Source: Paecilomyces variotii (taxonomy: Eukaryota). Taken from it: a stretch of 64,000 nt of DNA. This document shows positions 5,368 through 52,445 of the stretch, piece by piece; the stretch's first letter is position 1; each line of letters opens with the position of its first letter. The translations under genes and the position numbers were made by a program. The stretch lies in assembly GCA_004022145.1 (NCBI GenBank), contig RCNU01000004.1. One strand, 5' to 3'. Below the pieces are notes generated by a model that worked only from the letters and a program-made list of their open reading frames with translations, did not search any database and had not been told where the DNA came from.

Positions 5368-5492
5368 TACTTAATTAGTTATTACCCCCTTGTAAAATTA
5401 ACTACCCCTTAAATTTAATCTCCTATAGTTATTTTATCAGGTATTCTTATTTTACCATTATAATTAGATAAGTATACCTTAAAATTAGAGAA

Positions 5493-5580
5493 TTAGGGCA
5501 TTAGGGCATTAGGGAAATTAGGGTATTAGGGGGGTTAGGACTTAGGGAGAGTTAGAATATAGAATATTTTAAAATTAGGG
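5493..5580 (+). repeat. Degenerate TTAGGG-containing (telomere-like) tandem array
   Basis: TTAGGG at 5493, 5501, 5509, 5518, 5526, 5542 and 5575, with TTAGGA at 5535; roughly 8-bp period. Confidence 0.6.
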
Positions 5581-5734
5581 GGATTAAGGAATGTATATAG
5601 AGTATATTTTTACCATATGTGGTAACGAGTTTACTTAGCGAAGATTGCGAGGTGAGGTGAGGTCTCGGAGGTCTCGGTGTGGTCCGTGCGTGGTGAACCG
5701 AGGTTTTGGAGCGAGGTGAGATGATCTGTAGTTA

Positions 5735-6033
5735 TACATTCACCCGACCATCTCAACTACCAGAGGCAAATTACAATTTGAACTCAATCTTCTTCAATAT
5801 TACTGAATAGCTGAGTTCGTCATTCTTTATCGCAAACCATAATAACTACCCCAATCTCTGTTGTGCCCCTCGTTATTTCTACCCTAATGGGTGAGTTACT
5901 AATGATTTAGACTCGTAGGAAAGAAAAATATTGTAAATTACGAGCGATATAGAGAGTGTTTACTGTATTAGTTCGAGACTGAAAAGACTTTCAAGAAAAT
6001 ATCATTGGTATTTCAAATGGTCGGGTGAGTATG
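5735..6033. mobile_element. Possible ~300-bp degenerate MITE with short TIRs
   Basis: CATTCACCCGACCATCTCAACTACC near 5737 is an imperfect inverse of GGTATTTCAAATGGTCGGGTGAGTATG (6007-6033); it interrupts the right arm of the outer inverted repeat. Confidence 0.45.
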
Positions 6034-34838: not shown

Positions 34839-35908
34839 TGACTGAAACGGTTCTTCCTGCGCACGTGGAAGCCTCCCATAGCGACCTGTGAAGGCGTCGT
34901 TATACGCAGCTCGATTCCACACTATAGTTTGATGCCAGGAACACTCCTTCATGCTTGAAGCTCGCGATTGGCATCAAGTTTTGGTCAACCTATATCGATA
35001 TGCTTGGGTAGATTCTATATACTATATGTGTCGTCCGGAAATCTATCAGATTCATCCAGATTTACTTCCAAAATACCTTGGCTTTTTGGTTTCTTTCTCA
35101 CGAATATTGAATCTCATACTGGACTTCAGTCAGCTCTACTATTACTATTCTATATCTGATAAATGACTTTACAGTTGTCACAGGCATATCTTGATTACTG
35201 ATTTCCAGATCTGAGAGAGGGCGCCAGCAGTATCACGGCAATTGCGATTAGAGGCTGCATTTGGGATTAGGAGGAGGCTCTTAGTTCACTAGACTTTTCT
35301 TATAAATTTCCTATTCCTCGCTACCTGATAGTTACAACTTACCTTTTGCTTATCTCACAAGCCAGCCAGTGGCCATGTCTACTTCTCCCCAGCTGCGGCC
35401 CCTTTGAGTACTATAATCTCTCGTTAACAGGCTCAATGTTGCCAATCTAGCAAATCTTCCCTCGTGAATTAGTGACCTTCAGCAATATCGGTAGTAAGAA
35501 AAAGGCTCAGCTAGACCCGATTGGTGAAGTATATTCTAGTATAAAAATACATCACCACTATATCCCATATCCGAACTTAAAAAAAACATTTATAATTGTC
35601 ATATGACATCAAAGGAAAGTAACACTTTATTACTTATCCCCTCTACCCCGCACCCGTAAAAAATTAGTCTTATGCGAAATTGGACACTGATAATCGCCAA
35701 TACAAAGCGTGCAAAAGCACACGCAGATGACACCATCCACGCCACTTACTTCCTAGAGGCTAGACAGGGCTTGAGTCAGTTGGGCACTTCGCTTAAATTT
35801 CCCAATATACAACTCTCACGCTATCTTGCTTAAGTTGACAAATAGCGTCATTCTAACTCCCTTTCTGAATCCACCTTCAGCAAAAAGAGCGGCATTATTG
35901 ACTGCAAG

Positions 35909-37199
35909 ATGGCGACTGTACAAGCCACCCAAGTGGATCAAGCTACATACGATTCATACGATAAATTATGGGTTCTTAGAGCCCTATGGGATCCGGCTGA
36001 ATATCAAAGGTAGGAATCTATCATAGCTCCTTAGACGTTGACTAAGATGGCTTGTTTTCTAGGTACAGAGATCGCCAGCTGACAGTCGCCAATAAGGCAG
36101 TGGCTCAATGGCCCGACAGTCCACTATATCGACGTAGACTCCAATGGATTCAAACCCATACTCCCGAAGGGCCTGTGTAACTTTTCCCTTGATCTAATTG
36201 AAAATGCTATTATTATGATCGAGTCTAACTAGGCTATCTATTAGAATTCCTCCGTCTGAGCCGACAGGGCTGACCTTGATAACCTATCACTGTATTGAGA
36301 TACTGAAAGACACACTCGCCAACTATACACTCTTGAACGAATCTGAAAGAATCAATATCGATGCTATTCTTCATGCATACAGGAGCGGTTCTCTAATTCC
36401 TCAACCAGGCCTTGTAACGTATTGGTACAACGGCATACAAACAGAGAACCCGGGACCTCCTGGCAGCCAACGTACTGAGGTCATAGAACGATGGGAAAAA
36501 GAACACGGCAAGGGATCTTTGTGGATAGAGACTGTAAGTTTTGCTCCGAATCTGATCTTTTTTTTATCTAGGTCTTTGGCTTAAGGAGTTAAAATTAGGT
36601 CCGGAGCTTGACTGATGCAAATCCTCAAATGGCAGCATTATCTATCTACCCCCGTCAGCCTCAGAACAACTTCAATCCACTTACCGATGAAATAATGGCT
36701 CATCATAATGTGAGCCTACACATTGATTTTCCGGAATATCTGTAATTCGCTAATAGATGCTGGATAAATTCAGATTCACATACTTGTTCGCATTGTCGAT
36801 TTTCAGAATGTCCAACTCATTACGGTATTGGATGACACTGGGTCCAGTTATCTAGAGTTATTTATGGATGATTGTCTTTCCCTTGGCCTGGATCCATCTA
36901 ACATACCTGCATCTCTCAATTGCGGCATCGAACGACTTACAACAGCCAATGGAATCATTCGGGTTCGAAAAATCCTCGTTGAAGTGCAATACATTGCGTC
37001 CGACAATTCAACCATCGGTTTACCCATCATGATCAAAGCGGTCATAAGAGACGGATATAGTGAAAACCGACCTAGATGCTCGGGACAGTCGCTTAGAAGG
37101 CACCTATTTACGGCGACTGCACCAGGTGCCATCGGTGCCGGAAACCTGCATGTTGGAACCCGTAAAACCCCTGTCGTCACTAGTCTGCCGGCCAGTTGA
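35909..37199 (+). CDS. Uncharacterised ~346 aa protein with C-terminal retropepsin-like (clan AA aspartic protease) domain
   Basis: Exons 35909-36009, 36063-36176, 36245-36533, 36599-36709 and 36774-37199 join in frame. C-terminal ITVLDDTGSSYLEL and RLTTANGIIRV; only one DTG motif. Confidence 0.72.
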
Positions 37200-37606
37200 A
37201 ATGTCCCTAAGCTGACAGTGGATGAATGATACCCAGGCTGAACGATTGAGTCCTATCCGATATCACCCGTAACGTTTTTCCGCTTCTTCACTCGAGTCGG
37301 CGTCCTAAACAACAACAAAAAAGTCCATTCATCGATACGAGATCACGTCACACTGAACACGAAAGCACATACAATTGATTCTCTATGCTGACATGCAATT
37401 TGAAACTTGAATGGGGGTGACGGTGGTTTTGAGCCCTTCAAAGGCACTCTAAAGTGGAATAAAGGAGTAAGAAATATTGTTACAGTTTAATGGCTGCAGG
37501 TTGGTAGATTATAAGTAATGAGTAGGGAACGTCATTGGCGATGTCTGGTTCACCCCAGTAAAAATACAGAGTCTAAACCCAAGACTCCATCCATCTATAC
37601 TCCAAA

Positions 37607-38704: not shown

Positions 38705-39446
38705 GGTTGCGGTAGGTTTCTTCACTTCATGAACCTGTGTATTTTCCCAGGTGGACACAAATCGGAGACACCTTGGGACACTTATACAGGCATGTAACCC
38801 TCGAGGAGATGGACATCGGGACAATTTTTTCCGTGTATCACTTTGTGCAAGCTCCTTTCCTCCATCAGTATAGATCGGGTATTATTTTCTTTCCGTGTTT
38901 GTCAGCATCGGCGTTCGGACAACCGAGCAATGCGAGTAACAATAATAATAGAGTCGGTGATAGCAACAGAATACTCTCTACTATTGCTCTGATTGGTCCA
39001 CCATTCTATTATTTGTCTCAATAACCAGATATGTAATAATATATAGTGTGCTCTGTGCTCTGTGACAGGATTCCAGACCGCCGTTCTGTGACAAGTGCTC
39101 TAAGTGCTCCTTTGTATTTTCTAGCAAGAGAGGATGAAAGGCCTTGGGCAATCCGATTACCCGCTCCTGACACCCCTGTGGACGAACAGAGACTCCATAG
39201 AAGATATTATTGCCCAGGAAACCCAGAGGAATAATGTAGAGAATTAAAAAAGTAAGTGTGACAATCATACAAGTCGTTCTAAGATGGTGCGCTCCTGCGG
39301 CAGTTCCCCTTGTGATACATCTTGTTGGTATTATTGTGGTCTTATCTCTCAGTCTCCAGATAATTAACGCGGTGTACCACGGAGTGAACACAAAATAACT
39401 AGTCCATATTCATTCAATGTAAAGAGACTGAATGGCGTCGCAGCTC

Positions 39447-42400
39447 TCAACTCACTGCCCATGAACCAGCCACACCCATAGGGCTCCCTAAGGCCGCAGC
39501 CTCCTGCCGAAAAGCGCTTAGAACACGGTCTATATTTGACGCAAACGGAACGATTCTTCGTCCTTCCGACGTATTTATATATAGACTGCCATGCTGCACG
39601 TAACAGCTGAACTGCTCGTCAAAGCTTCGTTCGATCCATGCCCCATATAACAACCGCAGAACTTCTGTACCAAAACCCGGAAAATTGTCGTAGAAATAAT
39701 CATAGCTCATCAACATACGCACGATCCTTAGACGTACCAAATGAGGGATGTGGGGAAGTCTGTCGACTATCATTTGTAGAATAGGCACCGGCAGGTCAGC
39801 TCGGTTGACTATAGTATCAACAACAGAAGACCTCGGGTGTAGCCAAGTATCTTCCAGTCGGGATACCACAGCCCGGAGGATGTGCTCTGGCAAAGTGGTT
39901 TGATTTCGTAAGACATCAGCTGCATGTCGCCTTACGTCACTGTCACTATCCTCTAGTCGGGAGGTCACCAGTGGAAGAACGTGCTGCGGCAAAGTAGTCT
40001 CGCGGGCTAGCACAAGCGTTGCATATTTCCTGTCATGTTGGTCAACGGCCCCTAGCAAGGATAAAGTATGCCGAAGGATATCCGCCTGCAGAACGCACGT
40101 TCTGCTGCACAAGGTGTAAATAATATCATCTCTGGAGTCCGGATCGATCTTCGTCAACTTGGATACTTGAGATATGACATCCTGCAGAACATTATCCCGT
40201 AAAGTTAGGCCACGTAGGGTATACTGTGCATCGTATCTGACATCTTCATCAGGATCCTCCAGCTTGGATACAACTTCTCTGACTACATCGCCTGGCAGCG
40301 GGGTTCTCCGATTGTTAAGGACCCAAAGAACAGCCTTTTTCAGTCGCGTGTCGGTATCGCGGAGTAAGCATGTTATTTCCCGAAGAATAGAGTCTGAAAA
40401 GATGGGTTTTCTCGCTAGGCCCCAAAGTGCAGCTTCTCTTGTGTCCACATTTTCGTTGGTATCTCGACAGTAAGATACCAGTATTCGAGTCAAATCGTCG
40501 GACAATAATCTGATACCCACTGCATGTAATACCGACGTCCTGACATCCTGAACAGGGTCTTTTATCCGTAACAACACATTTAGAAAGACATTGTCCGGCA
40601 GATCTTGGTCCCTTAGGATTTCAGCCGCACTTATTCGTGTATCTGGATTGATATCCTGCAGTCGACATATTAATTTTTGCAATATATGCTCTGGCAAGCA
40701 TTGATTGCTTAAAATTCGAAGCGCAAGTTGTTTTCTGTCAGCATCTGCGTCGTCTAGCTGAGACATAAGCACCTGGAGCACACGATCTGGCAATCTTTGC
40801 TTGGATAGAGCGCGTGCCGCTGACTCTCGGGTACCCGTGCTAGCATCATCCAGCTTGTGCAGAATTTCCTGGACGATATGTTCTTGTAAGGTTCTCTGGC
40901 TCAAAGCAACACTTGCATGTTCTCTGATAGTTGCCTCGGGAGCATGAAGCCGGGTCAGTATTACTGGGAGGATATGTTCCGGTAGCACTGTGTCTCTGTT
41001 TCCGAGTGCATAAAGTGCCGCTGATGTCAAAACTCCCGGAGTGCCATTTTCAAGAAAGGACAACACCCTGTTCAAAATGAGAGGCGAAATCCGTGCTCGA
41101 TCTCTCAAAACTTTCAAGATGTGCTCTTTGACGTCCTCGGCTCCTTCCTCCAGCATAGTATCCAGCAGATGATCAGGAAACTCCATTCCACGACAGAGTT
41201 CCATTTTCTTGTGGAGCTCGTATTCGAAAAACGCCCATTGTTTCAATTGATTTTCTATTTCTGTGCGGGTATCACCAAACGATGACATGGGAGGGACCTC
41301 ACTGAGACAGTGCATTAGAATCCGCTGATGTCCTGGGCCCAATAGGTCTGATGGCGCACTCCGCAGCATTTCAAAGAATGTGTGCAGTCGTTCTTCATCG
41401 TGGTCTTGGAGTAACCCAGACACAAAACGCCAAAAAATATCGTAGCGCCCGTCATACTTCTCCTGCTGAAGGAACATCTCCGGTGTGACATATGTCACAC
41501 GCTTTTGCTTTGCGAGGCTAAAATTGAAGCACAGTAGCTCTTTTCCATTTTTCCAGCAGCTCAGAAAATACTTCGCTGCGAAGTATTCCTGAAAGGTAAG
41601 ATGGAGAAAATGGTAAGACTTATCCTTCTCCCTGGCTGAGGAGTCCGCCGTGCGCAGGAAAGAGAGCCTCACTAGATTCCGCGATAAGAGCGGGGTGACA
41701 AGCTTGCAGTGCTTGTAAACCTCGTCTCGATGCTGGGCGTTGAATTCGATGATATCATTATATATCCCGGTGAAAGCCAAAGACTGCAGGAGCGTATCCT
41801 CTTCTTCGATTATCGACAGAATCTCTGCAGGGGATACGTAGGGCAGGTCAAATTCGGACAACGGACTATCCTTTGGTTTGCCCAGTTGCAGAATATCCTT
41901 TGTCCACAATTTCAGCTCGATCGCCTGATACAGCGCTGTCATTGTCTCTGGTGGACCTCGAAAAGAGAAATCACTGTCCCAACTGTAGCACAATGCATCG
42001 AGTTGGATTGGAATCTGGACCAACCCCTGAATAAGCCAATGGCTCTGAATAAATGACCGCATTTCTCGTGCCGTATCTTCGTCACCGACAACCTTGCTCA
42101 GATAACTGTCAACTTGGTCTGAATGGAACCCGACGGTTTCCAATTCCAGATCAAACGGTTCAAGGACGGGCAGATGTACAGCATGTGGCCGGGAAGTGAT
42201 GATGACGTTCTGTCGATTCAGCAAGTTTTTGAAGGTTTCAACCAGGTCAATTCCAGAAGAATTACGCTCCCCAGAAATCTCATCCAATCCATCGAGGATG
42301 AACAAGGTTCTACTATCGCCCTGGTCGCAGATAGTTTTCCATAATGCCGGGGCTAGGATATCGCGCTCACGGTGCATGGAGAAATATTCATCGTAGATGA

Positions 42401-44153
42401 ACTGCTGCAGCGTTGATCTCTCTTTGAGCTTTCTCAAAGGGACCCAAAGCACTCGGTCAAATTCGTCCTCCCACATTCTCTCATATATGAAGTCGTGGAC
42501 AATCCTTTTGCACAGTGTGGTTTTTCCTACTCCTGCACGTCCACGAATAAGAATCCTCCTGGGCCGAATCATGCTACCGTCTGACTTTTCTCTTTTTCTG
42601 AATAGATGCGGCAGGATAATTTCCGGTTTTATATCGGATTCCTTCACTTTGAGACGGCTGAAGAGTGTAAATGCTGAAGAGTTACTCTCCACATTGTCAC
42701 CGTATAGCTCCTTTGTGGACTCACTCCCTTCGTGTTCTATGATAGCAAGATTGATATAACAGTACGCCATATCGAGAAGGTCACCGGAGAGTCGTTTAAT
42801 ATCAAGCAGCCTGCGCTGAGTGTAATAATGTCGTATTCTGCTATCAGCATAGAACTGCTGAGCTTCATGGCATTGAAGCCAAGCACTTTCCAGCAACTTT
42901 GCTGACAGATGGTGTGTTTTTACCATCTCAGTAGGAAACCGACTCAGTCTTGATTCGTAGTCCTTGTTCTTCCAAATTCTCAATCTGTGTCGATTCTTGC
43001 AGAAGCTTTCTCTCCAACTGGATTGCTCCATAGTGCCTGCAACTAATTTGACCCAGTCCTGAGCGCGTCGCCAATTCGGCCTTATTTGTCGTATTAGACG
43101 CGCAGTCAACTGCAGGATCTGCTTCTGATCTGATCCATCGCCAGTCATCCAGGCCAGCTCGAGCTGAGCGAATAAGCCACAAAAGAACGACTCATCTTCT
43201 CGACAAGGCGACCTCTCAATAAAGACCGTAAGTACTTCGAATTCTTCGATCTCTATCAACAGTTCGGTATAGCGAAGGGCCGTATACCAGCGTTTCTGTT
43301 GACACAGGCTGATCATACCGTCGACGAGACTCTGTAGACTTCGGGACTGAGGTCCCCCCGGTGCCGCTTTGGCTATCTTCTTGACCAGAGATAGCAGTTC
43401 CATTAGGGCTGGAGTAGCACTAAGGAATTTCGTCACATCCATAGTCATAACAGCGGCGCTGATATTTGCTGTAGCGTTGATGATTGTACAGCTGTAGCGC
43501 CAAAGTGCTTCATAAGGACTTTCGTCGTCCGGAACACCCAGCAAGGCTTGATAAGCATAGCGGGCTGCTTGGGAAAGTCGAGGCTCTCGATGATTCTTCA
43601 GGGGCTCTAATTGCTTGAGAAGAGGTTCATGTAAACCTTCTCTGCTGAGACCAGAAACACGAATATCCACCATGGCATCCAGGACGACAGACAACATATA
43701 CACGAGCTGATACTGGGTCTCGATCTCAGCTCGTTTGACAGCATTTTCTAGCCTTGTTTGAAGACACTGTAGGACGGATCCGAGTTTTGCAGTTTCGGCC
43801 GATAGTGTACTCGGAGCTCGACGAAGGACATGGGCGAAACTAGTGAGGAGTGTTGATTCGAGTATATTCCCGTCATTTGTCCCTTGGATGATGACGTTTG
43901 AAAATGCTGCTAGAAGATCCACATATTCCTTCTCAGGAGCACACCAGGATAGATGGGCCGCTTCGAAAATATATGAGTTTTTAGGGTCATCTTGGAAGAT
44001 TTGGACCATGGCCTTTGCCCATGCTTCCAATGCCCTTCTCTCGTTAGAGCTAGTGGCAGGGCTCAATAGACGTCCAACGAGGTCGTCGGTCCTGGTAGGT
44101 CTCGACAGGTTCTCGTAAGATGGAGAAGAATGTCCACCTGCCATTTCATACAT
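39447..44153 (-). CDS. NLR-like STAND protein: N-terminal Arm-like helical domain + NACHT + ~13 HEAT-like repeats
   Basis: Single 4.7 kb ORF. Walker A GRAGVGKTT, Walker B LFILDGLDE, IITSRP, FLHLTFQEYFAA; C-terminal 32-35 aa repeats of the form LPEHIL..V..RLED....VR..A...L. Start codon uncertain (first ATG used). Confidence 0.9.
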   Translation of the reverse strand: MYEMAGGHSSPSYENLSRPTRTDDLVGRLLSPATSSNERRALEAWAKAMVQIFQDDPKNSYIFEAAHLSWCAPEKEYVDLLAAFSNVIIQGTNDGNILESTLLTSFAHVLRRAPSTLSAETAKLGSVLQCLQTRLENAVKRAEIETQYQLVYMLSVVLDAMVDIRVSGLSREGLHEPLLKQLEPLKNHREPRLSQAARYAYQALLGVPDDESPYEALWRYSCTIINATANISAAVMTMDVTKFLSATPALMELLSLVKKIAKAAPGGPQSRSLQSLVDGMISLCQQKRWYTALRYTELLIEIEEFEVLTVFIERSPCREDESFFCGLFAQLELAWMTGDGSDQKQILQLTARLIRQIRPNWRRAQDWVKLVAGTMEQSSWRESFCKNRHRLRIWKNKDYESRLSRFPTEMVKTHHLSAKLLESAWLQCHEAQQFYADSRIRHYYTQRRLLDIKRLSGDLLDMAYCYINLAIIEHEGSESTKELYGDNVESNSSAFTLFSRLKVKESDIKPEIILPHLFRKREKSDGSMIRPRRILIRGRAGVGKTTLCKRIVHDFIYERMWEDEFDRVLWVPLRKLKERSTLQQFIYDEYFSMHRERDILAPALWKTICDQGDSRTLFILDGLDEISGERNSSGIDLVETFKNLLNRQNVIITSRPHAVHLPVLEPFDLELETVGFHSDQVDSYLSKVVGDEDTAREMRSFIQSHWLIQGLVQIPIQLDALCYSWDSDFSFRGPPETMTALYQAIELKLWTKDILQLGKPKDSPLSEFDLPYVSPAEILSIIEEEDTLLQSLAFTGIYNDIIEFNAQHRDEVYKHCKLVTPLLSRNLVRLSFLRTADSSAREKDKSYHFLHLTFQEYFAAKYFLSCWKNGKELLCFNFSLAKQKRVTYVTPEMFLQQEKYDGRYDIFWRFVSGLLQDHDEERLHTFFEMLRSAPSDLLGPGHQRILMHCLSEVPPMSSFGDTRTEIENQLKQWAFFEYELHKKMELCRGMEFPDHLLDTMLEEGAEDVKEHILKVLRDRARISPLILNRVLSFLENGTPGVLTSAALYALGNRDTVLPEHILPVILTRLHAPEATIREHASVALSQRTLQEHIVQEILHKLDDASTGTRESAARALSKQRLPDRVLQVLMSQLDDADADRKQLALRILSNQCLPEHILQKLICRLQDINPDTRISAAEILRDQDLPDNVFLNVLLRIKDPVQDVRTSVLHAVGIRLLSDDLTRILVSYCRDTNENVDTREAALWGLARKPIFSDSILREITCLLRDTDTRLKKAVLWVLNNRRTPLPGDVVREVVSKLEDPDEDVRYDAQYTLRGLTLRDNVLQDVISQVSKLTKIDPDSRDDIIYTLCSRTCVLQADILRHTLSLLGAVDQHDRKYATLVLARETTLPQHVLPLVTSRLEDSDSDVRRHAADVLRNQTTLPEHILRAVVSRLEDTWLHPRSSVVDTIVNRADLPVPILQMIVDRLPHIPHLVRLRIVRMLMSYDYFYDNFPGFGTEVLRLLYGAWIERSFDEQFSCYVQHGSLYINTSEGRRIVPFASNIDRVLSAFRQEAAALGSPMGVAGSWAVS

Positions 44154-44825
44154 TAGTATTTCCCGAGTATAATAGAAAAAAGGATTCGTGATGAAGCTCA
44201 ATCACAGCAGAGAAATTCGACCTTTACAAACCTGACGCCCGACATTGCACATGTCATCTCTGGCTTACGTCGCTGTCACAGCCTCATGCAACCTGCCGTG
44301 TGAGGAAAAGAACGTCCTTTTGTAGGCGCTAAGATCATACAGCTGAGTGGTTGGTATCAGGGCGCTAGGAGGGTTTCCAATGATGAGGGCGCTTACAGAG
44401 TGTTCTTCATTGGCTAAACGATACAGATACAGGCAGCATATGCAGGGAACAAGAATAGATCTTTACTAGGTAGACTAAGTAGAAGAAAATGTTTCATGAT
44501 CTTGGAGGAAGTCATAGATGCGAGCCTCTTTAGGGGTTCAGTCGAGTTTGTACTGTAGTATTGTTTGCTCAAACCCTTTCTTGGTTAATGTACGGTCTGA
44601 GGCGCTGAGTACCTCAACAGGTGGCACAGAGCCTGCGTAGTTTTCCCGCTAGCAAACATTTCGGATTGAAGGGTTGGAATAGCCATATAGATGGCCTCTG
44701 TGATTACCGATTATACTTTGCCTGAGACTCTGAGAGGGGTTTATATGGTTGAGCTGCCGCTTTAGAACAATGGTCACTGCAAGAGAGCATGAGCTTTGCC
44801 GCATTACTATCAGTGAGACAGCCAG

Positions 44826-44829
<4 letters not shown>

Positions 44830-44887
<58 letters not shown>
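44830..44887 (+). repeat. Poly(A) tract, 58 nt
   Basis: Uninterrupted A run. Confidence 0.95.
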
Positions 44888-44888
<1 letters not shown>

Positions 44889-45948
44889 ATAAAATACAAA
44901 AAAGATATTAGTTATCGTGTACCGAGTATGTGCATATGGATCTAAGTATAACCCCCGAATTTTGGATCACTTCAATACTTTCGTCGCTTCGAAACACTTC
45001 TGGTCTGAGATCTGGAAAGCTCCAGAGTCCAAAGAACGGTTATCTAGATAATCTAGGTCCAAGCTCTCAGTGGTGTATACTTTGATAAAGCAGAGCACAG
45101 AGTTATTATTATTATCCCTAGAAGTTATCATGAGGCACTGATTGCTCTTTGCAGAATGCTAGTGGAAGAATAAAATAGTGCATAACTATTCTGAATCATA
45201 ACTTCCTCAGCATAGGGCTAGTGAGGTGGATAGACCACTATGGTATTTTTTGTCTCCTTTTCTTTTCTTTTCGCTGATTTTTTTTTTCTTCTGCCCCAGT
45301 TTAACCTTCCGAATGGATTTTAGTTATATAATGCGAGACCCATCCGAGTTCCACTTAGAAGTTAGTAATGCTGTACTCCGTACATAACTACTGCTCCATA
45401 TTCTGTTCCGGATGCAAATAAGCAGCTAGGATCGCCTCGATGGATCTACAGCGAAGTCGTATCGAAAGTACGGAGTATGAACTACGGACACCACATCCGT
45501 GCTCCATGGAGTAAAAAGCCTTGTCGATACGCGACCTCCAGTCTGACCGATCCAGAGGACTACAGGACGAGTCCTTCGCGGGCGGGTCGATCATCGGCTT
45601 CACGGCTGAGTACTCTGAAGATAATAGCAGCAGGGATTGACATTGACCGAGACACCGTGTACTCCGAAGAGCCCATGACGGTATGACCCATGAAACCCGT
45701 GCGATCGTCACGCACTTAAGAAATAAAAAACGTGAGCTCTGCTATGCAGGAGATTACTCGTATTCCGTCGATAAAAAAGCCCATGATGAATTATTGATTA
45801 ACTTAGGGTGGTTGCAGATCCGGCTGATCCCATCCCGTGCATTTGGATAGGAGGGTAAGTAGTGACGTATAACTAGATGGTGTTTTTTCTTTCCGAGTCT
45901 GCTGACAGTGTTAGAACTAACAGATCTTCCATGAAAGGTAAATAATAT

Positions 45949-45950
<2 letters not shown>

Positions 45951-45994
<44 letters not shown>
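45951..45994 (+). repeat. (TG)22 microsatellite
   Basis: Perfect dinucleotide run. Confidence 0.95.
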
Positions 45995-45995
<1 letters not shown>

Positions 45996-48630
45996 AATTT
46001 TCTGGTTTCTTTTGCTTGACCGGTGAGGATATGTAGATATAACCTGCGTAATTAGGTAGGTGGCTTGGGTATCAGATCGAGCACGCATTCCGGACAGCTC
46101 TGTAAACGGAATATCAAGAAGTTCAAGTTGCTTACAATGCTGTCAATTGTAAAAGAAGGTTGTCCCAATCGTGAGTCTTCCGTGGTTTGGGATAAGAGGT
46201 AAAACGATACCCGCGCGTTGCCAAGAAGGGGCTCCATGTCTGAGAAATAACCTTGTCGCATGTTAACTGTGGTTCATGATGCGTTTCGAGTCTTTTTTTT
46301 TTTCGTATCCTTTTCTTTTCCACGGGTTTCGCGACTGTGGTTCCTGTCCCGGTCATGCCGGCCGCCGAAAGCTCCACGGCGGATAACACTCCGATCCTTG
46401 TACTCCGTATATAGTTGTCAATATATTATGGTAAAGGGCAAAGTATCGAGAACAGAGTGACTGTTAACAACATCGACGAAGGATATTATTGGTTCAGCTG
46501 AAACGCGGAAGCTTACGAGTCGGGTGTCCATCTCTACGCGCGATGATGATATAGTAAGTTAATTACTCCGTACATCAAAAGATGATCAAAAGCGTTGCGT
46601 CTTACCGGCTCCACCTCCTCCGCCCGGGATGCGCGAAAAAAAAAAGGAAAAAGCTCATCGGAGGTTTGAAGTAGTAGTTAGTAGTTAACAGACCGCGTTC
46701 GAGGATGAGAATCCTTAGTGGCCCTTGCTCGCACGAACGTGCATTCTTTTTGCACCGTGTTCATTGCTCCGTATGGAGTATTAATCCATACTCGCAGATA
46801 ATTTTATGGAGCGAGTGATCAAACCAGCCACAGATCGATCAGAAGCTTCCCGCTCGAATCGCGCCGGCACCGTATAAGCCTGCCCATCCCCCTCGGTGTA
46901 CTCTGCACGGGAGTAGATCAACTGGTTATGCCGCCCTTTGTTAGGAAGATCAGTTACTGATCGCATGGGCCCTCTCTTTCTTCGACTTTCACGGATGACT
47001 GCGGACGACGACGCACGGACGAGCTGTGAAACATCGGCCGCTCGAACAACCGCGTGTTCCCTCTCTTAGTGCCCTTGTTATTGTTAGGTTCTTCTGGACC
47101 TTTTTTTTTTCTCTCTCGCAGGGACGGATGATGTTAGTCATGAGGACTCTGACTGCATGGAGAGCTGGCTGATAACTCGCATATCAAGAAGATGTGGCTG
47201 AGTTAGCGGGGACTGGGCGGCTAAGAGCAGACGAACGATCGTACCGTTGCGGGCAGCCAAGAGAGTCCAAGGAACCGAGACTATGATGGTCCATCGGCCT
47301 AGTTGACGGGTTTTCAATCTCTGCTACCTTTGGGTTCCTAGCGGCGGCTTTAGTAGGCCATCTTCCAGCGATGAGAGGCCGCCACGGTTCGATTCCACGT
47401 CTCATCGATGATCCAACCCGTCAAGACGATCAGCGGGTGCTTGGCGGCGTTGGACGTGCCGCAAGTCGTCGTAAGACATGCGCCGTTAAGGTTGCTAAAA
47501 TTGGGGATGGCAACTGGACTGGATGAGAGCGCTGGGGTAAAGAGTCTGGTGAAGTCCAGGGCGACCCGGTCCCCAGATGATGCTGAAGAGCCCGATCAAT
47601 GGCGGAGACGAGGACGACGCGCGGTGATACTATGCTTGGTGGAGAATTGAATTGATTTAGATAGTTATCTAGTGCGATCCAGAGGGGATGACGCCAGCTT
47701 CTCTCGTTCTCTTTCTCTTTTTCTCTTCTTCTGTGGCAGACGACGCATCGGTCAGTGTCAGCATTCGTTTGAGACATGCTCAGGGATCCGGAACAACACA
47801 CCCCAAGAAACATTCTTTTTTGACCCTTTGGGGTAAGCTATCGGGATTCACTATTCTCTCGGAGGGCGCGGGAGTCGCGGACCGTCAAGACTAGTCATCG
47901 TTCAGCAGTAGTATTAGTAGTGTAGTAGTTACTCTAGTTCTCAGGTAACAAATAGTAGCATCTCCGGTATTACCGGCTCTTGCTGGATATAGGTTAACCA
48001 CGGGAATACGCAGAGAGAACAGACAGACAAGACAGTCAGTCAGTCAGTACTCAGTAGGAACTAGTTCTTTTTGCCTCCCCGTTTCTTTCTCTCTCTCTTT
48101 CTTCTCCTCAGTCTGGTCAAACCACCAGCACCACCACCATCCCTCCTTCGTTTTCTTTTCTCTTATCGTTTCTTCTCTGGGCCGCACCAACTGCTCTGCC
48201 CTGTTCTCGGGGACGAAGATCATCGTGAACAAGCGTCCGTCAGCCTTCTAGAAGACCGACGTCATTATCTGCAGCACTTTCGCTTACTCTACATTCCTCC
48301 GGTTCTTCGCTTTCCGCTTCCAGCCCTTCCACTCGCTTGATCATAGTTCTGTCCATGGAACAGCCCAGATAGACGCCCTCATCGTCCCCAGAACGTCTCT
48401 CTGGCGCCAGTGGAGAAGACGGGTTAAGAACTCCCCTGCTCCCGGTAGTCATCTTCTCTCCTCGACCTCTTCTGTCCTCGGTATTCTCTGCTCCTCCCAG
48501 CCATTATCTGGCATCCGACCTCGTCGCTTTGGCTGTCCCCAGGCCGAAGATCGCTCCGGTTTACAGACTCCTCTCCTTCGAGTTGAACGGTCGAACAGGC
48601 TTCCCGTTCTGACACGGACGATCACCCGTC

Positions 48631-51600
48631 ATGGGTCGCTCTCGAGGTAAGTAGATCGATGCTTGAGATCGGATCGGATCGTGCAAATGTTTATCGCGGA
48701 TTGCTGACCCCCTTGCGTCGCATCAGTTTTCTCTTTCATATCGACCTTCGGGCCTGGCCGACATCATCTCCATGGCCGTGACAATCAAGACCAGAGTCCC
48801 GCGGCTTCGACAGCTGCCATTCTATCGAAACCACAGGTAGAGCCCAAAGTCGACAACCCGTCCCCAGATCAGTATGCGTCAGCGACTACGCGGGAAGTGT
48901 CCACGGCTTCGGCCGCGACGACGATGAGACCAGAGCGCTTCACTCTACGTCCTGCGTCGATGGCCTTTTCCCTGCATCCCCCATTGATGGATGTCACGGA
49001 AGACACGTTACCCGAATTGTTTCCTATCTTTACCTTTCTGAATAGTCATTCGAATAAGCTGTACCAGGAAGGGTACTTTTTGAAGCTGAATGACTTGGAT
49101 TCGCGTATGTAGATCACTGTGGGCGGAGAATGTGGAAGTGAATCTGTCTGACGTGAAATTGTAGATGGACGGCCGTGCCCCGATCGACAATGGGTCGAAT
49201 ACTTTGCACAGCTGATCGGAACGGTCCTCTCCTTGTGGGATGCGTCTGCGCTGGACGCAGCCGGTCACGATGGAGAAGTTGCGCCGACGTTCATTAACCT
49301 AGCAGACGCCTCGATCAAGATGGTAAGATTATCCTCTACTTTTTGTGTGCTCTGGAGACAGTTGCGTTAATCAGATTTCGCACATGTGTAGATCGATCAG
49401 CTGCCCACGCGAAACCCAGGAATTCAGCCGTTGCAGAACGTGCTCAGCGTATCGACCGCGGGCAAGAACCGATATCTACTGCACTTCAACTCCTTCCATT
49501 CCATGACGCAGTGGACGGCTGGTATCCGTCTGGCGATGTTTGAACATGCTTCTCTGCAGGAGGCCTACACCGGCTCGATTATTGCGGGCAAGGGCAAGAT
49601 GCTCAACAACATTCGATCCATCATGGAGCGCACTCGATTCAAGCAAGAAGACTGGGTTAGAGTGAGATTCGGCGCGGGAACGCCCTGGAGACGCTGCTGG
49701 TGTGTCATCAACCCGCCCGACGAGAAGCAGTACCAGAAGCTGCAGAAGACGATGAAGAAAAAATCGGCCTATGACAGGCCTCCTCCCATGCCCACTGGAA
49801 ACATCGAGTTCTATGAAACCAAGAAGACGAAGAAGACGAAGCCCATTGCTACAATCACGGGTGCATTCGCAGCCTACGCCATCTACCCCCAGTCGAAGCC
49901 GTTAATCGACCAATCCACTTTGGTCAAGGTCGAAGGGCAGATCGTCATTCATTCACAACCGGAGTCGACGACGGAGGGCTTCGTATTTATCATGCCAGAG
50001 GTGCACCCGGCCGTGTCTGGCTTCGAAATGATGCTGCGATTCCTCTTCCCCATTTTCGACACCTTCTCTCTCTACGGTCGGCCGACGCGTCTTCTGGCGG
50101 ATACAAACAACGCAAAGAGCATCATGTTTGCCTTCCCAAAGCACAAGCGATATGGCTATCTAGATATTCTGGATGTTGCCAGTTTGATCCAGCAGGAGGG
50201 TAGCCGGAACTGGAGCGAAGGAGAATGGAGGAAGCAACTGAAAGACGCCACTGCTCGCCGGATGGCCACTCAGGGAAGCCGGACTGATAGTATCAGAACG
50301 CGCCGTCAGAGGGCGAGTCTACCCTCGCGGAATAGTACATTGCGGTATCGCGACTCGAAGCGGTCTGTGACTACCCCTGCAGTACATCTCGAGTTCAATC
50401 AATCTGCAGATGCCGTGTACGAGGCTTCGCCAAAGGCCGAAACGGTTTATTCAACACCCACCCACACACGTGCCGCTTCAGATACCACTGGATTTGCTAT
50501 GGGTCGTCAACGCGAATCGTACATGCCTACTCCTTTGGAGAAACCTCACCCGGAGTCTTTGGAGAGCGAAGAACGGCCTAGCACAAAGGAATCCAGCGAA
50601 CACACTAGTTCCGACAGTGAGACGAAGGAGTTGCAGGCCACCCATGCGGAAACTGTGGTACAGCATCTTCGACCAAGCTCACCTCCGTCCCCGGTGGTCA
50701 GCCCGCCGGCCTTTGCACACAGCCCTGGAGAGGTTCCTCAGACTAGACCATTACCTTCACCGGATCTCAGGAAGGCCAAAGTCCGGATGTCGGACGCCAC
50801 CCTTTCGCAACTTGTTGAGGCAGGAAACTTGAGAGGATTGGCCAGCGCCACGGAACGCAAGGATCCCGGAGCCGGAGGGATAGACCAGCGAGAAGTAATA
50901 CATGATGATACCAGCATGTTTCGTGCCACTGCTAACGCGAACGTCTTCCCCCAAAGGACTCCAGGGAATAAGACTGCGACCCCGGATGAGCGCCCCCCGT
51001 CCGTGCCCGTTCATGGTTCCTATGATCTCAACGCCAGAGTTCAGGATGTTGCACACTCCTCCCCTCAGCGCTATTCGCATCTCCCCCAGATCGATACTAC
51101 CAAAGCTATCACACGGAAACCTGTGCCCCAGCGACGACCGGAGCCGCCAGCTGATAGCCCCAGCGAGGCCAGTCTAGGAAGTTTCCGGCACGCTTTTGAT
51201 GAGGAGGCTCTTAATCGTATCGTTGCCCGCCAGACATCATTCTCTACAGATCGAGACTGTCGGCCAGATGAGGAGAGTGTCTATGATGACGACGACGCCT
51301 CGACTGTTTCTCCTGATTATGCAAGCACTCGCAAGTCCATAGACAGCAAAAATTCTCAGCAGTCAATCCCGAGACCAAGGATGGGCGTGTTGAAGACCGT
51401 CGGGGTTGATCCTGAACCGGAAGAACTAGTTATCGGTGATGCTAAGTACAGGCGTGACGCTCCACCAACGCCGAAAGCAGAGATCCCAGCGGTCGATTTC
51501 GGACCGACATTGTCCTACGTTCCGACCACCAAGAGCCCTCGTGCACCGGATGCTTTAGGCGAATTTGGACATCATCGAAAAGGTTCTGATGCTACTGTCG

Positions 51601-52445
51601 GTCGCAATGAGATTCTGGCCGGAGTCAGGGAGAGCCCAGGAATGGCGAGGCAGGACCGTCCTCATTCCAGATCTCCTAGCGGAGATGAGCTTCGTCGCAA
51701 CGTCTATTGGCAGCCAGGCATGGCTTCTGCTCGCCCTTCCACCCCCGGTCAAACTTTGACACCGGAGCAATTCGTTCAACAGCGGGCCGTCATAAACAGG
51801 AAGCCATCCCCGGCCTACGCCCATCAGCGCAGCTCTTCAATGACACCACCACCCAGACCATCCTCGGCTGATTGGAATGCTCATACGCGTCGTCCTTCAT
51901 ACATTAAAGAGTTGCCAGTTCGCCCTCAGTCTCGCGGTGCCGGTAGCACGCTTGGTTACAATGATATCACTTCACATCTGTCTGCCAGAGAACAGGAACA
52001 TATTGCTCGAATTACTGGATCGTCGTTCTTTAACATCTCATCGAATAACAGTAGGCAGCAAGCTCCCATGAATCCGGCTACTCTTGTGGGTGCAATCGAT
52101 GTCCGCGAGCGAGAAAGGCAGAGTATGAGGGAGGGAATGAGCAATCAGATGGTTGAATATGCTATCGCTCAACGTCAGCAACAAGAACAGGCACAAATGT
52201 ACGCTATGCAGCAGCAGCATGCTCGTGGCCATAGCATGTACAATCTTCCGACGGCAAACCGCACGTGGGATGCTCTCACTCAGATAGACCAAACGTATTC
52301 GATGAACGGGCGTGGTCGACAATCTTGGGCGGGGCAGTTTCAGCCTCAGCAGTCAACGCCTCCTATGTCTCAACCGAATCAGTATTTCCAACAATATCCT
52401 GGCACCTATAGCGATGCTGGGGTGCAATTCTCGCATAATCGCTGA
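48631..52445 (+). CDS. PH-domain protein, Skg3/Caf120 family
   Basis: MGRSR| first exon; PELFPIFTFLNSHSNKLYQEGYFLKLNDLD, LSLWDA, VLSVSTAGKNRYLLHF, EDWVRVRFGAGTPWRRCW, HLSAREQEHIAR. Confidence 0.88.

What the first reader, a model, noticed from the sequence alone, without database searches (positions are those of the whole stretch)
39447..44153. Single-ORF NLR with an unusual Arm-like N-terminus, NACHT and HEAT repeats
Seen: a ~1570 aa uninterrupted ORF in an intron-rich genome, with intact NACHT motifs and ~13 HEAT-like repeats. Established: typical ascomycete NLRs carry HeLo/HELL, HET, PNP-UDP, patatin, SesB, Goodbye or amyloid N-termini and WD40/ANK/TPR sensors; none of these is evident. 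The N-terminal block YQLVYMLSVVLDAMVDIRVSGLSREGLHEPLLKQL...LSQAARYAYQALLGVPDDESPYEALWR resembles, from my recollection only, the Arm-like domain of NACHT proteins of Mortierellaceae and their Mycoavidus bacterial endosymbionts. Inference: a poorly described NLR class with an unknown effector domain, possibly acquired horizontally.
Basis: partly seen in the sequence, partly recalled or inferred. Interest (0 to 1): 0.8.

Follow-up and report, generated by a model that had tools for sequence, protein, structure and literature searches.

The report
Polymorphic ARM-NACHT-HEAT fungal immune receptor
This is an intact, transcribed immune-receptor-type (NLR) gene of the mould Paecilomyces variotii whose unusual helical head belongs to an already catalogued domain family, and whose repeat "sensor" differs strongly between strains while the rest of the protein hardly changes.

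Summary
Window 39447-44153 (minus strand) is one uninterrupted 1568-codon gene with intact NACHT motifs and 13-15 HEAT repeats of 32 residues.

The N-terminus is not an unknown domain. It matches Pfam PF23948 (ARM_5) over the whole profile (E 9e-158).

The class is already in print. The literature describes an "NLR_Helical" N-terminal domain (PMC9815663) and NAIP-like "N-NACHT"/HEAT fungal NLRs (bioRxiv 2024.11.26.625400). This protein carries that class's diagnostic motif, FLHLTFQEYFAA.

Horizontal acquisition by Paecilomyces is not supported:
- ARM_5 and NACHT trees both place the protein among Eurotiomycete sequences.
- The neighbouring genes scanned are ordinary housekeeping-type genes.
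- Base composition matches the flanks.

New here: 13 P. variotii protein variants (25 contigs) fall into four HEAT-array types that are 73-91% identical. Residues 1-1000 stay 96-100% identical. The changes sit at particular repeat positions, as in polymorphic NLR sensors.

The function of ARM_5 remains untested. Verdict: new member of a known kind, moderate interest.

The parts
39447..44153 (-). Whole coding sequence, 1568 codons plus stop, no intron
   Evidence: RNA contigs of run X17 lie on 39392-41468 and 43131-44170, and all bins of the gene are covered.
42879..44105 (-). ARM_5 (PF23948) alpha-solenoid N-terminal domain, residues 17-425
   Evidence: E 9.3e-158, 525.8 bits, profile positions 2-419 of 419. 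AlphaFold model is all-helical, pLDDT 72.9. Only generic solenoid fold matches.
42744..42896 (-). Conserved pre-NACHT segment, residues 420-470, including invariant C465-Y-I-N-L469
   Evidence: Invariant columns in alignment A1. Many Mycoavidus loci match only query residues 441-518.
42081..42560 (-). NACHT P-loop NTPase core, residues 532-691 (Walker A 538-545, Walker B 617-625)
   Evidence: Best solved relatives are NLRP3 chains, E 6.7e-14.
41358..41609 (-). Helical-third / HD2 region with the NAIP-like motif FLHLTFQEYFAA (849-860); NLRC4_HD2 match at 851-932
   Evidence: motif. (38.6 bits against cut-off 33.1). The motif definition was read in bioRxiv 10.1101/2024.11.26.625400.
39702..41153 (-). 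HEAT repeat array, residues 1001-1484, 13-15 units of 32 aa; hypervariable between strains
   Evidence: repeats. (164 of 484 sites vary among 13 P. variotii variants). (an RNA contig is about 10% diverged here and 0.5% in the ARM_5 part).
39450..39701 (-). Conserved C-terminal cap, residues 1485-1568: three-stranded sheet plus helix, no Pfam family
   Evidence: found at the extreme C-terminus of 45 of 186 proteins held. (pLDDT 92.3; strands at 1516-1536, helix at 1541-1554). (no specific fold match).

Best explanation
This is a functional, vertically inherited NLR (STAND) receptor of Paecilomyces variotii belonging to the known ARM_5 / NAIP-like-NACHT / HEAT class. Shown: an intact 1568-residue frame in all 13 variants examined; RNA contigs lie on it; the NTPase motifs are complete; and the HEAT array is the fast-evolving part. 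Four discrete array types exist within the species, with substitutions concentrated at repeat positions 7, 8, 11 and 18-30, while the framework positions stay fixed. Inferred by analogy with NLRP3, NAIP/NLRC4 and the fungal HET-E/NWD receptors: the HEAT solenoid binds a variable ligand, either non-self or an allelic self product. Binding releases the NACHT domain for nucleotide-dependent oligomerisation. Oligomerisation brings the ARM_5 heads together. ARM_5 has no enzyme-like fold, is conserved, and sits in the slot that PNP_UDP, RelA_SpoT or HET domains fill on sister proteins. It therefore most likely acts as a proximity-activated protein-interaction platform that recruits or releases a downstream executor. 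The conserved C-terminal cap closes the solenoid and may contribute to auto-inhibition.
For: Architecture and motifs.
Class membership: the motif FLHLTFQEYFAA equals the N-NACHT consensus quoted in the preprint. 119 of the 120 best NACHT-module relatives carry the motif, and 53 of 120 carry an ARM_5-like head.
Effector-slot argument: on the NACHT tree the ARM_5 state needs only 8 changes (shuffled mean 39). A 15-row clade without ARM_5 is nested among ARM_5 rows; I counted PF01048 (PNP_UDP_1) by eye in 12 of the 120 rows, and most of those 12 are in that clade.
Purifying selection on the chassis, diversification of the sensor. Variable sites among 13 P. variotii variants:
- ARM_5 25/430
- linker 14/100
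- NACHT 10/170
- HD 18/300
- HEAT 164/484
- tail 23/84
Four HEAT types lie on 6, 11, 7 and 1 of 25 contigs. Two P. lecythidis strains are 98% identical in residues 1-1000 and 62% in the HEAT array. Repeat positions 15-32 vary more than positions 1-14 (58/144 against 23/112, Fisher p 7e-4).
Independent nucleotide-level support: in run X17 one contig differs at 188 of 1912 laid bases in the HEAT part, while another differs at 5 of 1040 in the ARM_5 part.
Transcription: X17 shows GT..AG spliced joints in neighbouring genes. Depth is 14-111 on the gene, against 3-7 in five of the six flanking bins with little cover and 0 in the sixth.
Vertical descent: trees; GC; neighbouring genes.
Against: No experiment exists for any member of the ARM_5 family. 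The searches found none, and the supplements of PMC9815663 could not be read.
The signalling role of ARM_5 is inference only. Fold searches give generic solenoids (best Z 10.8, below the roughly 13 that the tool names as background for helical repeats). The Atlas search gave no usable hit.
The variation was measured on proteins, so dN/dS was not computed. Relaxed constraint on the repeats could produce part of the pattern.
Expression rests on one metatranscriptome run. A second RNA-labelled run (X15) behaves like genomic DNA, with contigs running through intergenic DNA exactly as in the DNA runs.
Strain sampling is not random, so haplotype frequencies say little.
The repeats are not of the 'high internal conservation' kind: mean pairwise identity is 32% and no tandem repeat is found at DNA level. 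The repeat-shuffling mechanism known from HET-E-type genes therefore does not apply.
Confidence: 0.8

Rival explanations
1. The gene entered Paecilomyces recently by horizontal transfer from a bacterium (Mycoavidus-like) or a Mortierellaceae fungus.
For: ARM_5 is shared across kingdoms. All 29 bacterial loci found are Mycoavidus MAGs. Three Mycoavidus genomes have 12-25 matches each. Transfer between Mycoavidus and Mortierellomycota is proposed in print (PMC9815663; PMC11291939). The gene has no intron. The distribution among named Eurotiales is patchy.
Against: A branch with 100% support separates Mortierellaceae plus Mycoavidus from all Pezizomycotina rows, both in FastTree (150 rows) and in IQ-TREE quick (62 rows). 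The window sits in a starred 19-row clade whose named rows are only Eurotiomycetes and Xylona. The NACHT tree agrees: a 44-row clade with 100% support. Identity to Mycoavidus is 23-31%, against 41-57% to Aspergillus, Talaromyces and Penicillium. Mortierellaceae members use WD40 rather than HEAT. GC of 0.47-0.49 is like the flanks. The gene is present in every P. variotii variant cluster seen and in P. lecythidis.
Confidence: 0.03
2. ARM_5 is not the output domain. It is instead a second sensor or integrated decoy, or an auto-inhibitory lid, and signalling proceeds through another partner or through the C-terminal cap.
For: Alpha-solenoids are typical binding surfaces (generic matches to importins and adaptins). 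In Mortierellaceae and Mycoavidus, ARM_5 starts 165-965 residues into the protein. One unnamed protein has a Ribonuclease_T2 domain in front of it (P0174), so there ARM_5 lies between a possible effector and the NACHT domain. Mycoavidus L002 encodes ARM_5 alone next to a NACHT-HEAT gene. A conserved C-terminal cap of unknown role exists.
Against: Within the species ARM_5 is as conserved as the NACHT domain (5.8% against 5.9% variable sites), unlike a sensor under diversifying pressure. In the Pezizomycotina clade it begins at residue 2-17 with nothing upstream. It alternates with known effector domains on the same chassis. P0174 and P0126 may be gene-model fusions.
Confidence: 0.2
3. The protein is a housekeeping STAND ATPase or scaffold with no recognition role, and the HEAT variability reflects relaxed constraint.
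For: It lies among core genes. The repeats have low internal identity. No defence-system model matches (PADLOC, one row at E 0.007).
Against: All 13 variants keep the full frame and repeat register. Eight are 1568 aa, and the shorter models are explained by predicted introns. Variation is position-specific within the repeat: framework positions 1, 6, 13 and 14 never vary in the 8 clean repeats. The types are discrete rather than a continuum. The family shows birth-and-death evolution and domain swapping typical of NLRs.
Confidence: 0.07

Closest known systems
Fungal N-NACHT (NAIP-like) / HEAT NLRs (bioRxiv 10.1101/2024.11.26.625400; passages read)
   Same: Exact diagnostic helical-third motif FLHLT[FY]QEYFAA; HEAT repeats as the C-terminal sensor; a rare, patchily distributed class in Ascomycota and Mortierellales.
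   Different: [quoted passage not shown] Here the head is ARM_5. That paper does not treat within-species sensor polymorphism in the passages I read. Its supplementary tables were not seen.
'NLR_Helical' N-terminal domain of fungal NLRs (Wojciechowski et al. 2022, PMC9815663, section 16 read) / Pfam PF23948 ARM_5
   Same: Long N-terminus (Walker A at residue 538); predicted as two alpha-solenoid stretches (helices 22-228 and 240-383); found in Pezizomycotina, Mortierellomycetes and Mycoavidus.
   Different: Equating NLR_Helical with PF23948 is my inference from the description. The cluster sequences are in a supplement that I could not open. No function is assigned in either source.
Mycoavidus / Mortierellomycota NLRs (NACHT-PPR-WD40; PMC11291939, passages read)
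   Same: Share the ARM_5 domain and a NACHT domain. One Mycoavidus gene (L001, 1840 aa) has the same three-part ARM_5-NACHT-HEAT order.
   Different: A deeply separate clade, 23-31% identical, with an extra N-terminal extension of about 165-300 residues. The Mortierellaceae proteins scanned have WD40 sensors. Copies are numerous: 12-25 matches per 2.6-3.1 Mb genome.
Animal NLRP3 and NAIP/NLRC4 inflammasome receptors
   Same: Best solved sequence relatives of the NACHT module (NLRP3 E 6.7e-14; the motif aligns with YSFIHMTFQEFFAA); NLRC4_HD2 Pfam match. The presumed mechanism is ligand-induced oligomerisation.
   Different: LRR sensors and death-fold heads in animals; HEAT sensor and ARM_5 head here. 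Only the NTPase module is homologous.
Podospora HET-E / HET-D / NWD polymorphic NLRs (named from my own knowledge, and as discussed in PMC13449251, passages read)
   Same: A near-invariant effector-NOD chassis combined with a highly polymorphic repeat sensor whose variable residues occupy defined repeat positions.
   Different: Those are TLP1-type NACHT proteins with WD40 repeats of high internal conservation and repeat-number polymorphism. Here the repeats are only 32% alike, the array length is fixed, and variation is by substitution.

Membership tests
NACHT NTPase (Pfam PF05729, STAND class) | Profile match above the curated cut-off | tested here: met
   70.2 bits against cut-off 26.7, residues 532-691.
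NACHT NTPase (Pfam PF05729, STAND class) | Intact Walker A (GxxxxGK[ST]) and Walker B (hhhhDGhDE) | tested here: met
   GRAGVGKT at 538 and LFILDGLDE at 617.
NAIP-like NACHT ('N-NACHT') | Helical-third motif FhHxxhQE[YF]hxA (definition read) | tested here: met
   FLHLTFQEYFAA at 849-860. Present in 119 of the 120 closest NACHT-module relatives.
NAIP-like NACHT ('N-NACHT') | In fungi, coupled to HEAT repeats | tested here: met
   HEAT_2 57.4 bits with 6 stretches; 13-15 units. HEAT_2 is found in 19 of the 26 homologues in A1.
NAIP-like NACHT ('N-NACHT') | HD2 helical domain of the NLRC4 type | tested here: met
   PF17776 38.6 bits against cut-off 33.1.
ARM_5 (Pfam PF23948) | Full-length profile match above cut-off | tested here: met
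   525.8 bits against cut-off 27, profile positions 2-419 of 419.
'NLR_Helical' domain of Wojciechowski et al. 2022 | N-terminus over 500 aa, two alpha-solenoid stretches, occurrence in Pezizomycotina, Mortierellomycetes and Mycoavidus | tested here: met
   Walker A at 538; model; taxa.
'NLR_Helical' domain of Wojciechowski et al. 2022 | Sequence membership in the authors' clusters | not testable with these tools
   The clusters are listed only in S1 Text, and supplements are closed.
Classical ascomycete NLR effector domains (HeLo/HELL, HET, PNP_UDP, patatin, SesA/SesB, Goodbye) | Profile match in the region N-terminal to the NACHT domain | tested here: not met
   None appears among the 25 rows shown of 28 at E<=1. 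In-house sesB-like and Goodbye-like profiles from the literature were not available.
High-internal-conservation (HIC) repeat NLRs such as HET-E | Near-identical repeats and repeat-number polymorphism | tested here: not met
   Mean repeat identity 0.32. TRF finds nothing. Eight of 13 variants are exactly 1568 aa, and the 1551-aa models are explained by a predicted intron.
Starship cargo gene | A tyrosine-recombinase 'captain' (DUF3435) nearby | tested here: inconclusive
   15 of the 23 ORFs of 180 aa or more in the window were scanned with Pfam and none is a captain. Eight were not scanned, and a Starship can exceed the window.
Bacterial anti-phage NLR-related systems (PADLOC models) | Match to a defence-system model | tested here: not met
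   Only PDC-S73 at E 0.0073 over 25 P-loop residues.

The most novel reading that the evidence does not exclude
The locus is a specificity locus of P. variotii, for allorecognition or pathogen recognition, kept polymorphic by balancing or diversifying selection. At least four HEAT-sensor haplotypes are recombined onto a nearly invariant ARM_5-NACHT chassis. ARM_5 would then be a new class of NLR signalling head, conserved from Pezizomycotina to Mortierellaceae and their endobacteria. That would make this gene a tractable entry point, in a transformable mould, to the function of the whole cross-kingdom family.
Probability: 0.3. Interest if true: 0.65.

Novelty: new member of a known kind. Interest (0 to 1): 0.4.

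Why it matters
The ARM_5 / N-NACHT / HEAT receptors are a catalogued but functionally untouched branch of fungal NLRs. Their NTPase module is the fungal one closest to animal NLRP and NAIP proteins.

This gene adds two things. First, it is a clean Eurotiales member whose evidence favours vertical descent, which narrows the cross-kingdom transfer story to Mortierellaceae and Mycoavidus. Second, it shows a within-species signature: four sensor types on one chassis. That is the pattern expected of a working recognition receptor. It also points to concrete strain pairs for compatibility or infection tests in P. variotii, a food-spoilage and fermentation mould for which many sequenced strains exist.

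If the polymorphism proves to be selected, HEAT arrays would join WD40, ANK and TPR as polymorphic fungal NLR sensors. In this case the variation arises by substitution rather than by repeat shuffling.

Tried and rejected
- **Own genome:** none is held for the window. Paralogue counts and synteny in relatives could not be done.
- **NCBIfam:** nothing near any cut-off.
- **PADLOC:** one negligible row.
- **Fold of ARM_5:** Foldseek against the PDB gave no match at E<=1e-3, with TM 0.15-0.24 to designed armadillo proteins and importins. VIA-align against 48,161 chains gave a best Z of 10.8, with a flat list of solenoids below the level the tool calls informative for helical repeats. No functional lead resulted.
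- **ESM Atlas:** with PF23948 clusters excluded, no usable hit.
- **Fold of the last HEAT units plus C-terminal cap:** the model is confident, but Foldseek found only designed armadillo and HEAT proteins. The small sheet-helix cap remains unassigned.
- **Tandem-repeat search on the HEAT-coding DNA:** no rows.
- **Run X15:** labelled RNA, but rejected as expression evidence. Its contigs of 7.6 and 14.5 kb run through intergenic DNA exactly as in DNA runs X9 and X10.
10 small ORFs between 34.2 and 48.2 kb gave no Pfam match, so I could not confirm it. The large upstream neighbour at 49392-52445 has a fungal PH-like domain (PF25381).
- **Trans-species polymorphism:** considered and not seen. The P. 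variotii HEAT types are closer to each other (74-91%) than to P. lecythidis (56-62%).
- **Literature searches:** PF23948 / ARM_5 / NLR_Helical and 'Paecilomyces variotii' + NACHT (listing only) returned nothing on this gene or on the domain's function.
- **Earlier findings of this scan:** look-ups by place and by sequence returned nothing.
Full report
**1. What is there**

One search lists a single open frame on the minus strand at 39447-44201. The first ATG is at 44153 and yields a 1568-residue protein (P0001). A stop codon lies immediately upstream in frame, and the Pfam ARM_5 profile already starts at residue 17. The N-terminus is therefore complete without an upstream exon.

The exact protein is on record on two NCBI contigs. 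Its 90% cluster mate is a 'hypothetical protein' of Paecilomyces variotii, so the window is P. variotii or something indistinguishable from it.

**2. Domain anatomy** (motifs)

- ARM_5 (PF23948): residues 17-425, E 9.3e-158, covering profile positions 2-419 of 419.
- NACHT: residues 532-691, 70.2 bits, with Walker A GRAGVGKT at 538 and Walker B LFILDGLDE at 617.
- NLRC4_HD2: residues 851-932, 38.6 bits against a cut-off of 33.1.
- HEAT_2: six stretches.

A repeat HMM built from five of the gene's own units finds 13 units between 1001 and 1436. Two more are visible by eye, and the period is 32 residues.

An 84-residue tail (1485-1568) follows the array. It recurs at the extreme C-terminus of 45 of the 186 proteins then held. 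It folds confidently (pLDDT 92.3) as a three-stranded sheet plus a helix that caps the last HEAT unit. No Pfam family or solved fold was matched for it.

None of the classical ascomycete NLR heads appears among the 25 rows shown of 28.

**3. The N-terminus is a catalogued domain**

The tools bear this out.

- A full-library HMMER search with residues 1-430 finds 633 cluster representatives at E<=1e-3, 391 at <=1e-10 and 97 at <=1e-30.
- The more distant hits that I looked up are from Mortierella alpina, Modicella, Entomortierella, Lobosporangium and a Mortierella sp. (5 of 10 looked up). The other five are Sordariomycetes.
- A scan of one genome per prokaryotic species returned 29 loci. Every one lies in a Mycoavidus cysteinexigens MAG. 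One caveat: the scan relies on two peptide patterns, so very divergent copies elsewhere would be missed.
- One Mycoavidus gene (L001, 1840 aa) has the same ARM_5-NACHT-HEAT order. Another locus has an ARM_5-only gene beside a NACHT-HEAT gene. A third has ARM_5 with WD40.
- Three Mycoavidus genomes of 2.6-3.1 Mb hold 12, 20 and 25 ARM_5 matches, mostly in open frames of about 1800-2000 residues. None of 14 control genomes has a match.
- In 299 scored genomes of the same bacterial family, 14 have matches, and all 14 are 1.9-3.1 Mb. Two further genomes were not scored.

**4. It is in print**

- Wojciechowski et al. 2022 (PMC9815663, section 16 read in full) describe 'NLR_Helical'. This is an N-terminal domain of more than 500 residues, made of two alpha-solenoid stretches, found in Pezizomycotina and Mortierellomycetes with homologues mainly in Mycoavidus. 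They suggest horizontal transfer.
- My model of residues 1-518 (pLDDT 72.9) shows two helical blocks, and the taxa agree. I therefore equate NLR_Helical with PF23948. The authors' sequences are in a supplement that I could not open, so this remains an inference.
- The preprint 10.1101/2024.11.26.625400 (passages read) splits fungal NACHT domains into TLP1-like and rare NAIP-like ('N-NACHT') types. N-NACHT is defined by FhHxxhQE[YF]hxA, with the Sordariales consensus FLHLT[FY]QEYFAA, and in fungi it is coupled exclusively to HEAT repeats. P0001 carries FLHLTFQEYFAA.
- In line with this, the best solved relatives of the NACHT module are NLRP3 chains (E 6.7e-14). The motif aligns with YSFIHMTFQEFFAA.
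- PMC11291939 (passages read) proposes transfer of NOD-like receptors between Mycoavidus and Mortierellomycota.
- Earlier notes of this scan on Mycoavidus windows reached the same filing.

**5. Was the gene acquired horizontally?**

The evidence says no, at least not recently and not from the bacterial or Mortierellaceae side.

- *ARM_5 trees.* I built a FastTree of 150 rows. These were all phmmer hits with at least 250 aligned positions, minus the two near-duplicates P0002 and P0003. I also built an IQ-TREE 'quick' tree of 62 rows: all named rows, the four Mycoavidus rows and 21 chosen unnamed rows, with 88 unnamed rows left out. In both, a branch with 100% support separates Mortierellaceae plus Mycoavidus from everything else. 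The window lies in a starred clade of 17-19 rows whose named members are Penicillium, Talaromyces, Arachnomyces and Xylona. Sordariomycetes form separate clades.
- *NACHT tree.* A FastTree of the NACHT module used 119 rows: the 120 best hits plus P0001, minus P0002 and P0003. It puts the window in a 44-row clade (100%) whose named rows are Aspergillus, Talaromyces, Penicillium, Arachnomyces, Emergomyces, Blastomyces and Xylona.
- *Same architecture in Eurotiales.* It occurs in Aspergillus fumigatus, A. tanneri, A. alliaceus, A. ibericus, Talaromyces stipitatus, T. atroroseus, Penicillium herquei and P. macrosclerotiorum.
- *Composition and neighbours.* GC content (0.47-0.49) equals the flanks. 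The neighbouring ORFs with a Pfam match belong to the families PIG-N, Csm1, AAA ATPase, MTP18, PHP, Old-Yellow-Enzyme, PH-like, ERV, NXF and Vps53.
- *Starship.* No Starship captain was seen among the 15 of 23 long ORFs scanned.

The patchiness fits the birth-and-death pattern usual for NLRs. These are support values from fast methods and the trees are unrooted. The class-level congruence of two separate domains is the argument, not any single node.

**6. ARM_5 occupies the effector slot**

- Among the 120 closest NACHT-module relatives, 53 have an ARM_5-like head and 119 have the NAIP-like motif.
- Among the rest, the precomputed Pfam lists show PNP_UDP_1 in 12, RelA_SpoT in 4 and HET in 2. 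I counted these by eye.
- On the NACHT tree the ARM_5 state needs 8 changes, against a shuffled mean of 39. A 15-row clade without ARM_5, holding most of those PNP_UDP_1 rows, is nested among ARM_5 rows.
- ARM_5 has no enzyme-like fold. Foldseek found nothing at E<=1e-3, and the wide structural search gave only generic solenoids with Z at most 10.8.

**7. New observation: the sensor is hypervariable within the species**

The collection holds 13 distinct protein variants on 25 contigs. Twelve are named P. variotii or are the window's own protein, and one is unnamed.

Variable sites by region:

| Region | Variable sites |
|---|---|
| ARM_5 | 25/430 |
| linker | 14/100 |
| NACHT | 10/170 |
| helical domains | 18/300 |
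| HEAT array | 164/484 |
| cap | 23/84 |

- The HEAT arrays fall into four discrete types: A on 6 contigs, B on 11, C on 7 and D on 1. They are 99-100% identical within a type and 73-91% between types. Residues 1-1000 are 96-100% identical throughout.
- The small differences in the chassis do not track the array type, which suggests recombination between chassis and array.
- Two P. lecythidis strains repeat the pattern: 98% against 62%.
- In the eight cleanest repeats, framework positions (1, 6, 13, 14) never vary. Positions 7, 8, 11, 18, 19, 22, 23, 25-27 and 29 vary in 4-6 of 8 repeats. Positions 15-32 vary more than positions 1-14 (58/144 against 23/112, Fisher p 7e-4).
- Array length is constant, the repeats are only 32% alike, and TRF finds no DNA-level repeat. 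Diversification is therefore by substitution, not by the repeat shuffling of HET-E-type genes.
- Independent support comes from run X17. One contig differs from the window at 188 of 1912 laid bases in the HEAT part, and has a 165-base block too diverged to align. Another differs at 5 of 1040 bases in the ARM_5 part.
- I could not compute dN/dS, because no allele DNA was available to me.

**8. Expression**

Run X17 is a metatranscriptome from one study. It carries GT..AG joints of 53-85 bases in the neighbouring plus-strand gene at 36.0-37.2 kb, so it is truly RNA-derived. It covers every bin of the NLR gene at depth 14-111. Five of the six flanking bins with little cover stand at 3-7 and the sixth at 0. 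Its contigs reach 39392, which is 55 bases past the stop, and 44170, which is 17 bases before the ATG. Contigs cannot define transcript ends. Run X15 is labelled RNA but looks like genomic DNA, and I set it aside.

**9. Mechanism and verdict**

The best-supported reading is a working NLR.

- The HEAT solenoid is the ligand sensor. This follows from the position-specific polymorphism.
- The NAIP-like NACHT domain is the nucleotide-driven oligomerisation switch. This follows from the intact motifs and the homology to NLRP3.
- ARM_5 is a conserved, non-enzymatic output platform activated by induced proximity. This follows only from its slot, its conservation and its fold, and is the weakest link.

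Whether the ligand is an allelic self product (allorecognition) or a foreign molecule is open.

The finding is a new member of a known, functionally untested kind.

Noticed in passing
window 4001-6000: A sharply AT-rich block (GC 0.266, against 0.43-0.55 elsewhere in the window). It may be a degraded repeat or a RIP-affected element.
   Followed up: no
window 41973-42023 (residues 711-727): The 1551-residue gene models of two other P. variotii strains (P0002, P0003) lack exactly these 17 residues. The DNA here starts with GT and ends with AG, so a 51-base in-frame 'intron' was probably predicted. It removes the nearly invariant IPIQLDALC motif and is most likely an annotation artefact.
   Followed up: partly
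window 42090-42178: One RNA contig of run X17 (depth 8.9, only 28 letters on the shorter side) skips 87 bases that have GT..AG ends on the gene's strand. The skip is in frame and would remove about residues 659-687 of the NACHT domain. This is weak evidence for a minor spliced isoform, or it may be an assembly artefact.
   Followed up: partly
window 42784-42905 and 41985-41999: In DNA runs X9 and X10 the assemblies break here, at the conserved pre-NACHT and IPIQLDALC segments. Contigs of 13.2 and 4.0 kb from elsewhere share the 122 bases at 42784-42905 with 5-8 differences. This hints at a paralogous N-NACHT gene in the genome. No P. variotii paralogue appeared among the 120 best NACHT hits.
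   Followed up: partly
window 44727-44918: About 570-765 bases upstream of the start codon, 190 bases of the window are replaced by 290 other letters in contigs of runs X9 and X15. This is a structural polymorphism in the likely promoter region.
   Followed up: no
window 39450-39701: A conserved 84-residue C-terminal cap (three strands plus a helix) with no Pfam family. It is present at the very end of 45 of the 186 related proteins held.
   Followed up: partly
L002:5425-8007 and L002:8140-12525: In one Mycoavidus MAG, an ARM_5-only protein (860 aa) is encoded directly upstream of a NACHT-HEAT protein (1461 aa) that lacks ARM_5. This is either a split version of the fused gene or a broken copy.
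   Followed up: partly
proteins P0174 and P0126 (representative library): An unnamed protein has Ribonuclease_T2 in front of ARM_5-NACHT-WD40. A Mortierella protein has MMS19 domains in front of ARM_5-NACHT. These are either real fusions or merged gene models.
   Followed up: no
genomes G001-G003 (Mycoavidus MAGs): There are 12, 20 and 25 ARM_5 matches per 2.6-3.1 Mb genome, mostly in open frames of about 1800-2000 residues. NLR-like genes therefore take up a few percent of these reduced genomes.
   Followed up: partly
window 35700-37400 (+) and 45700-46600 (-): RNA contigs show spliced, expressed genes here: GT..AG joints at 36007/36061, 36176/36245, 36709/36774 and 37151/37237, and a CT..AC joint at 46533/46606. 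The ORF fragments I scanned gave no Pfam match.
   Followed up: partly
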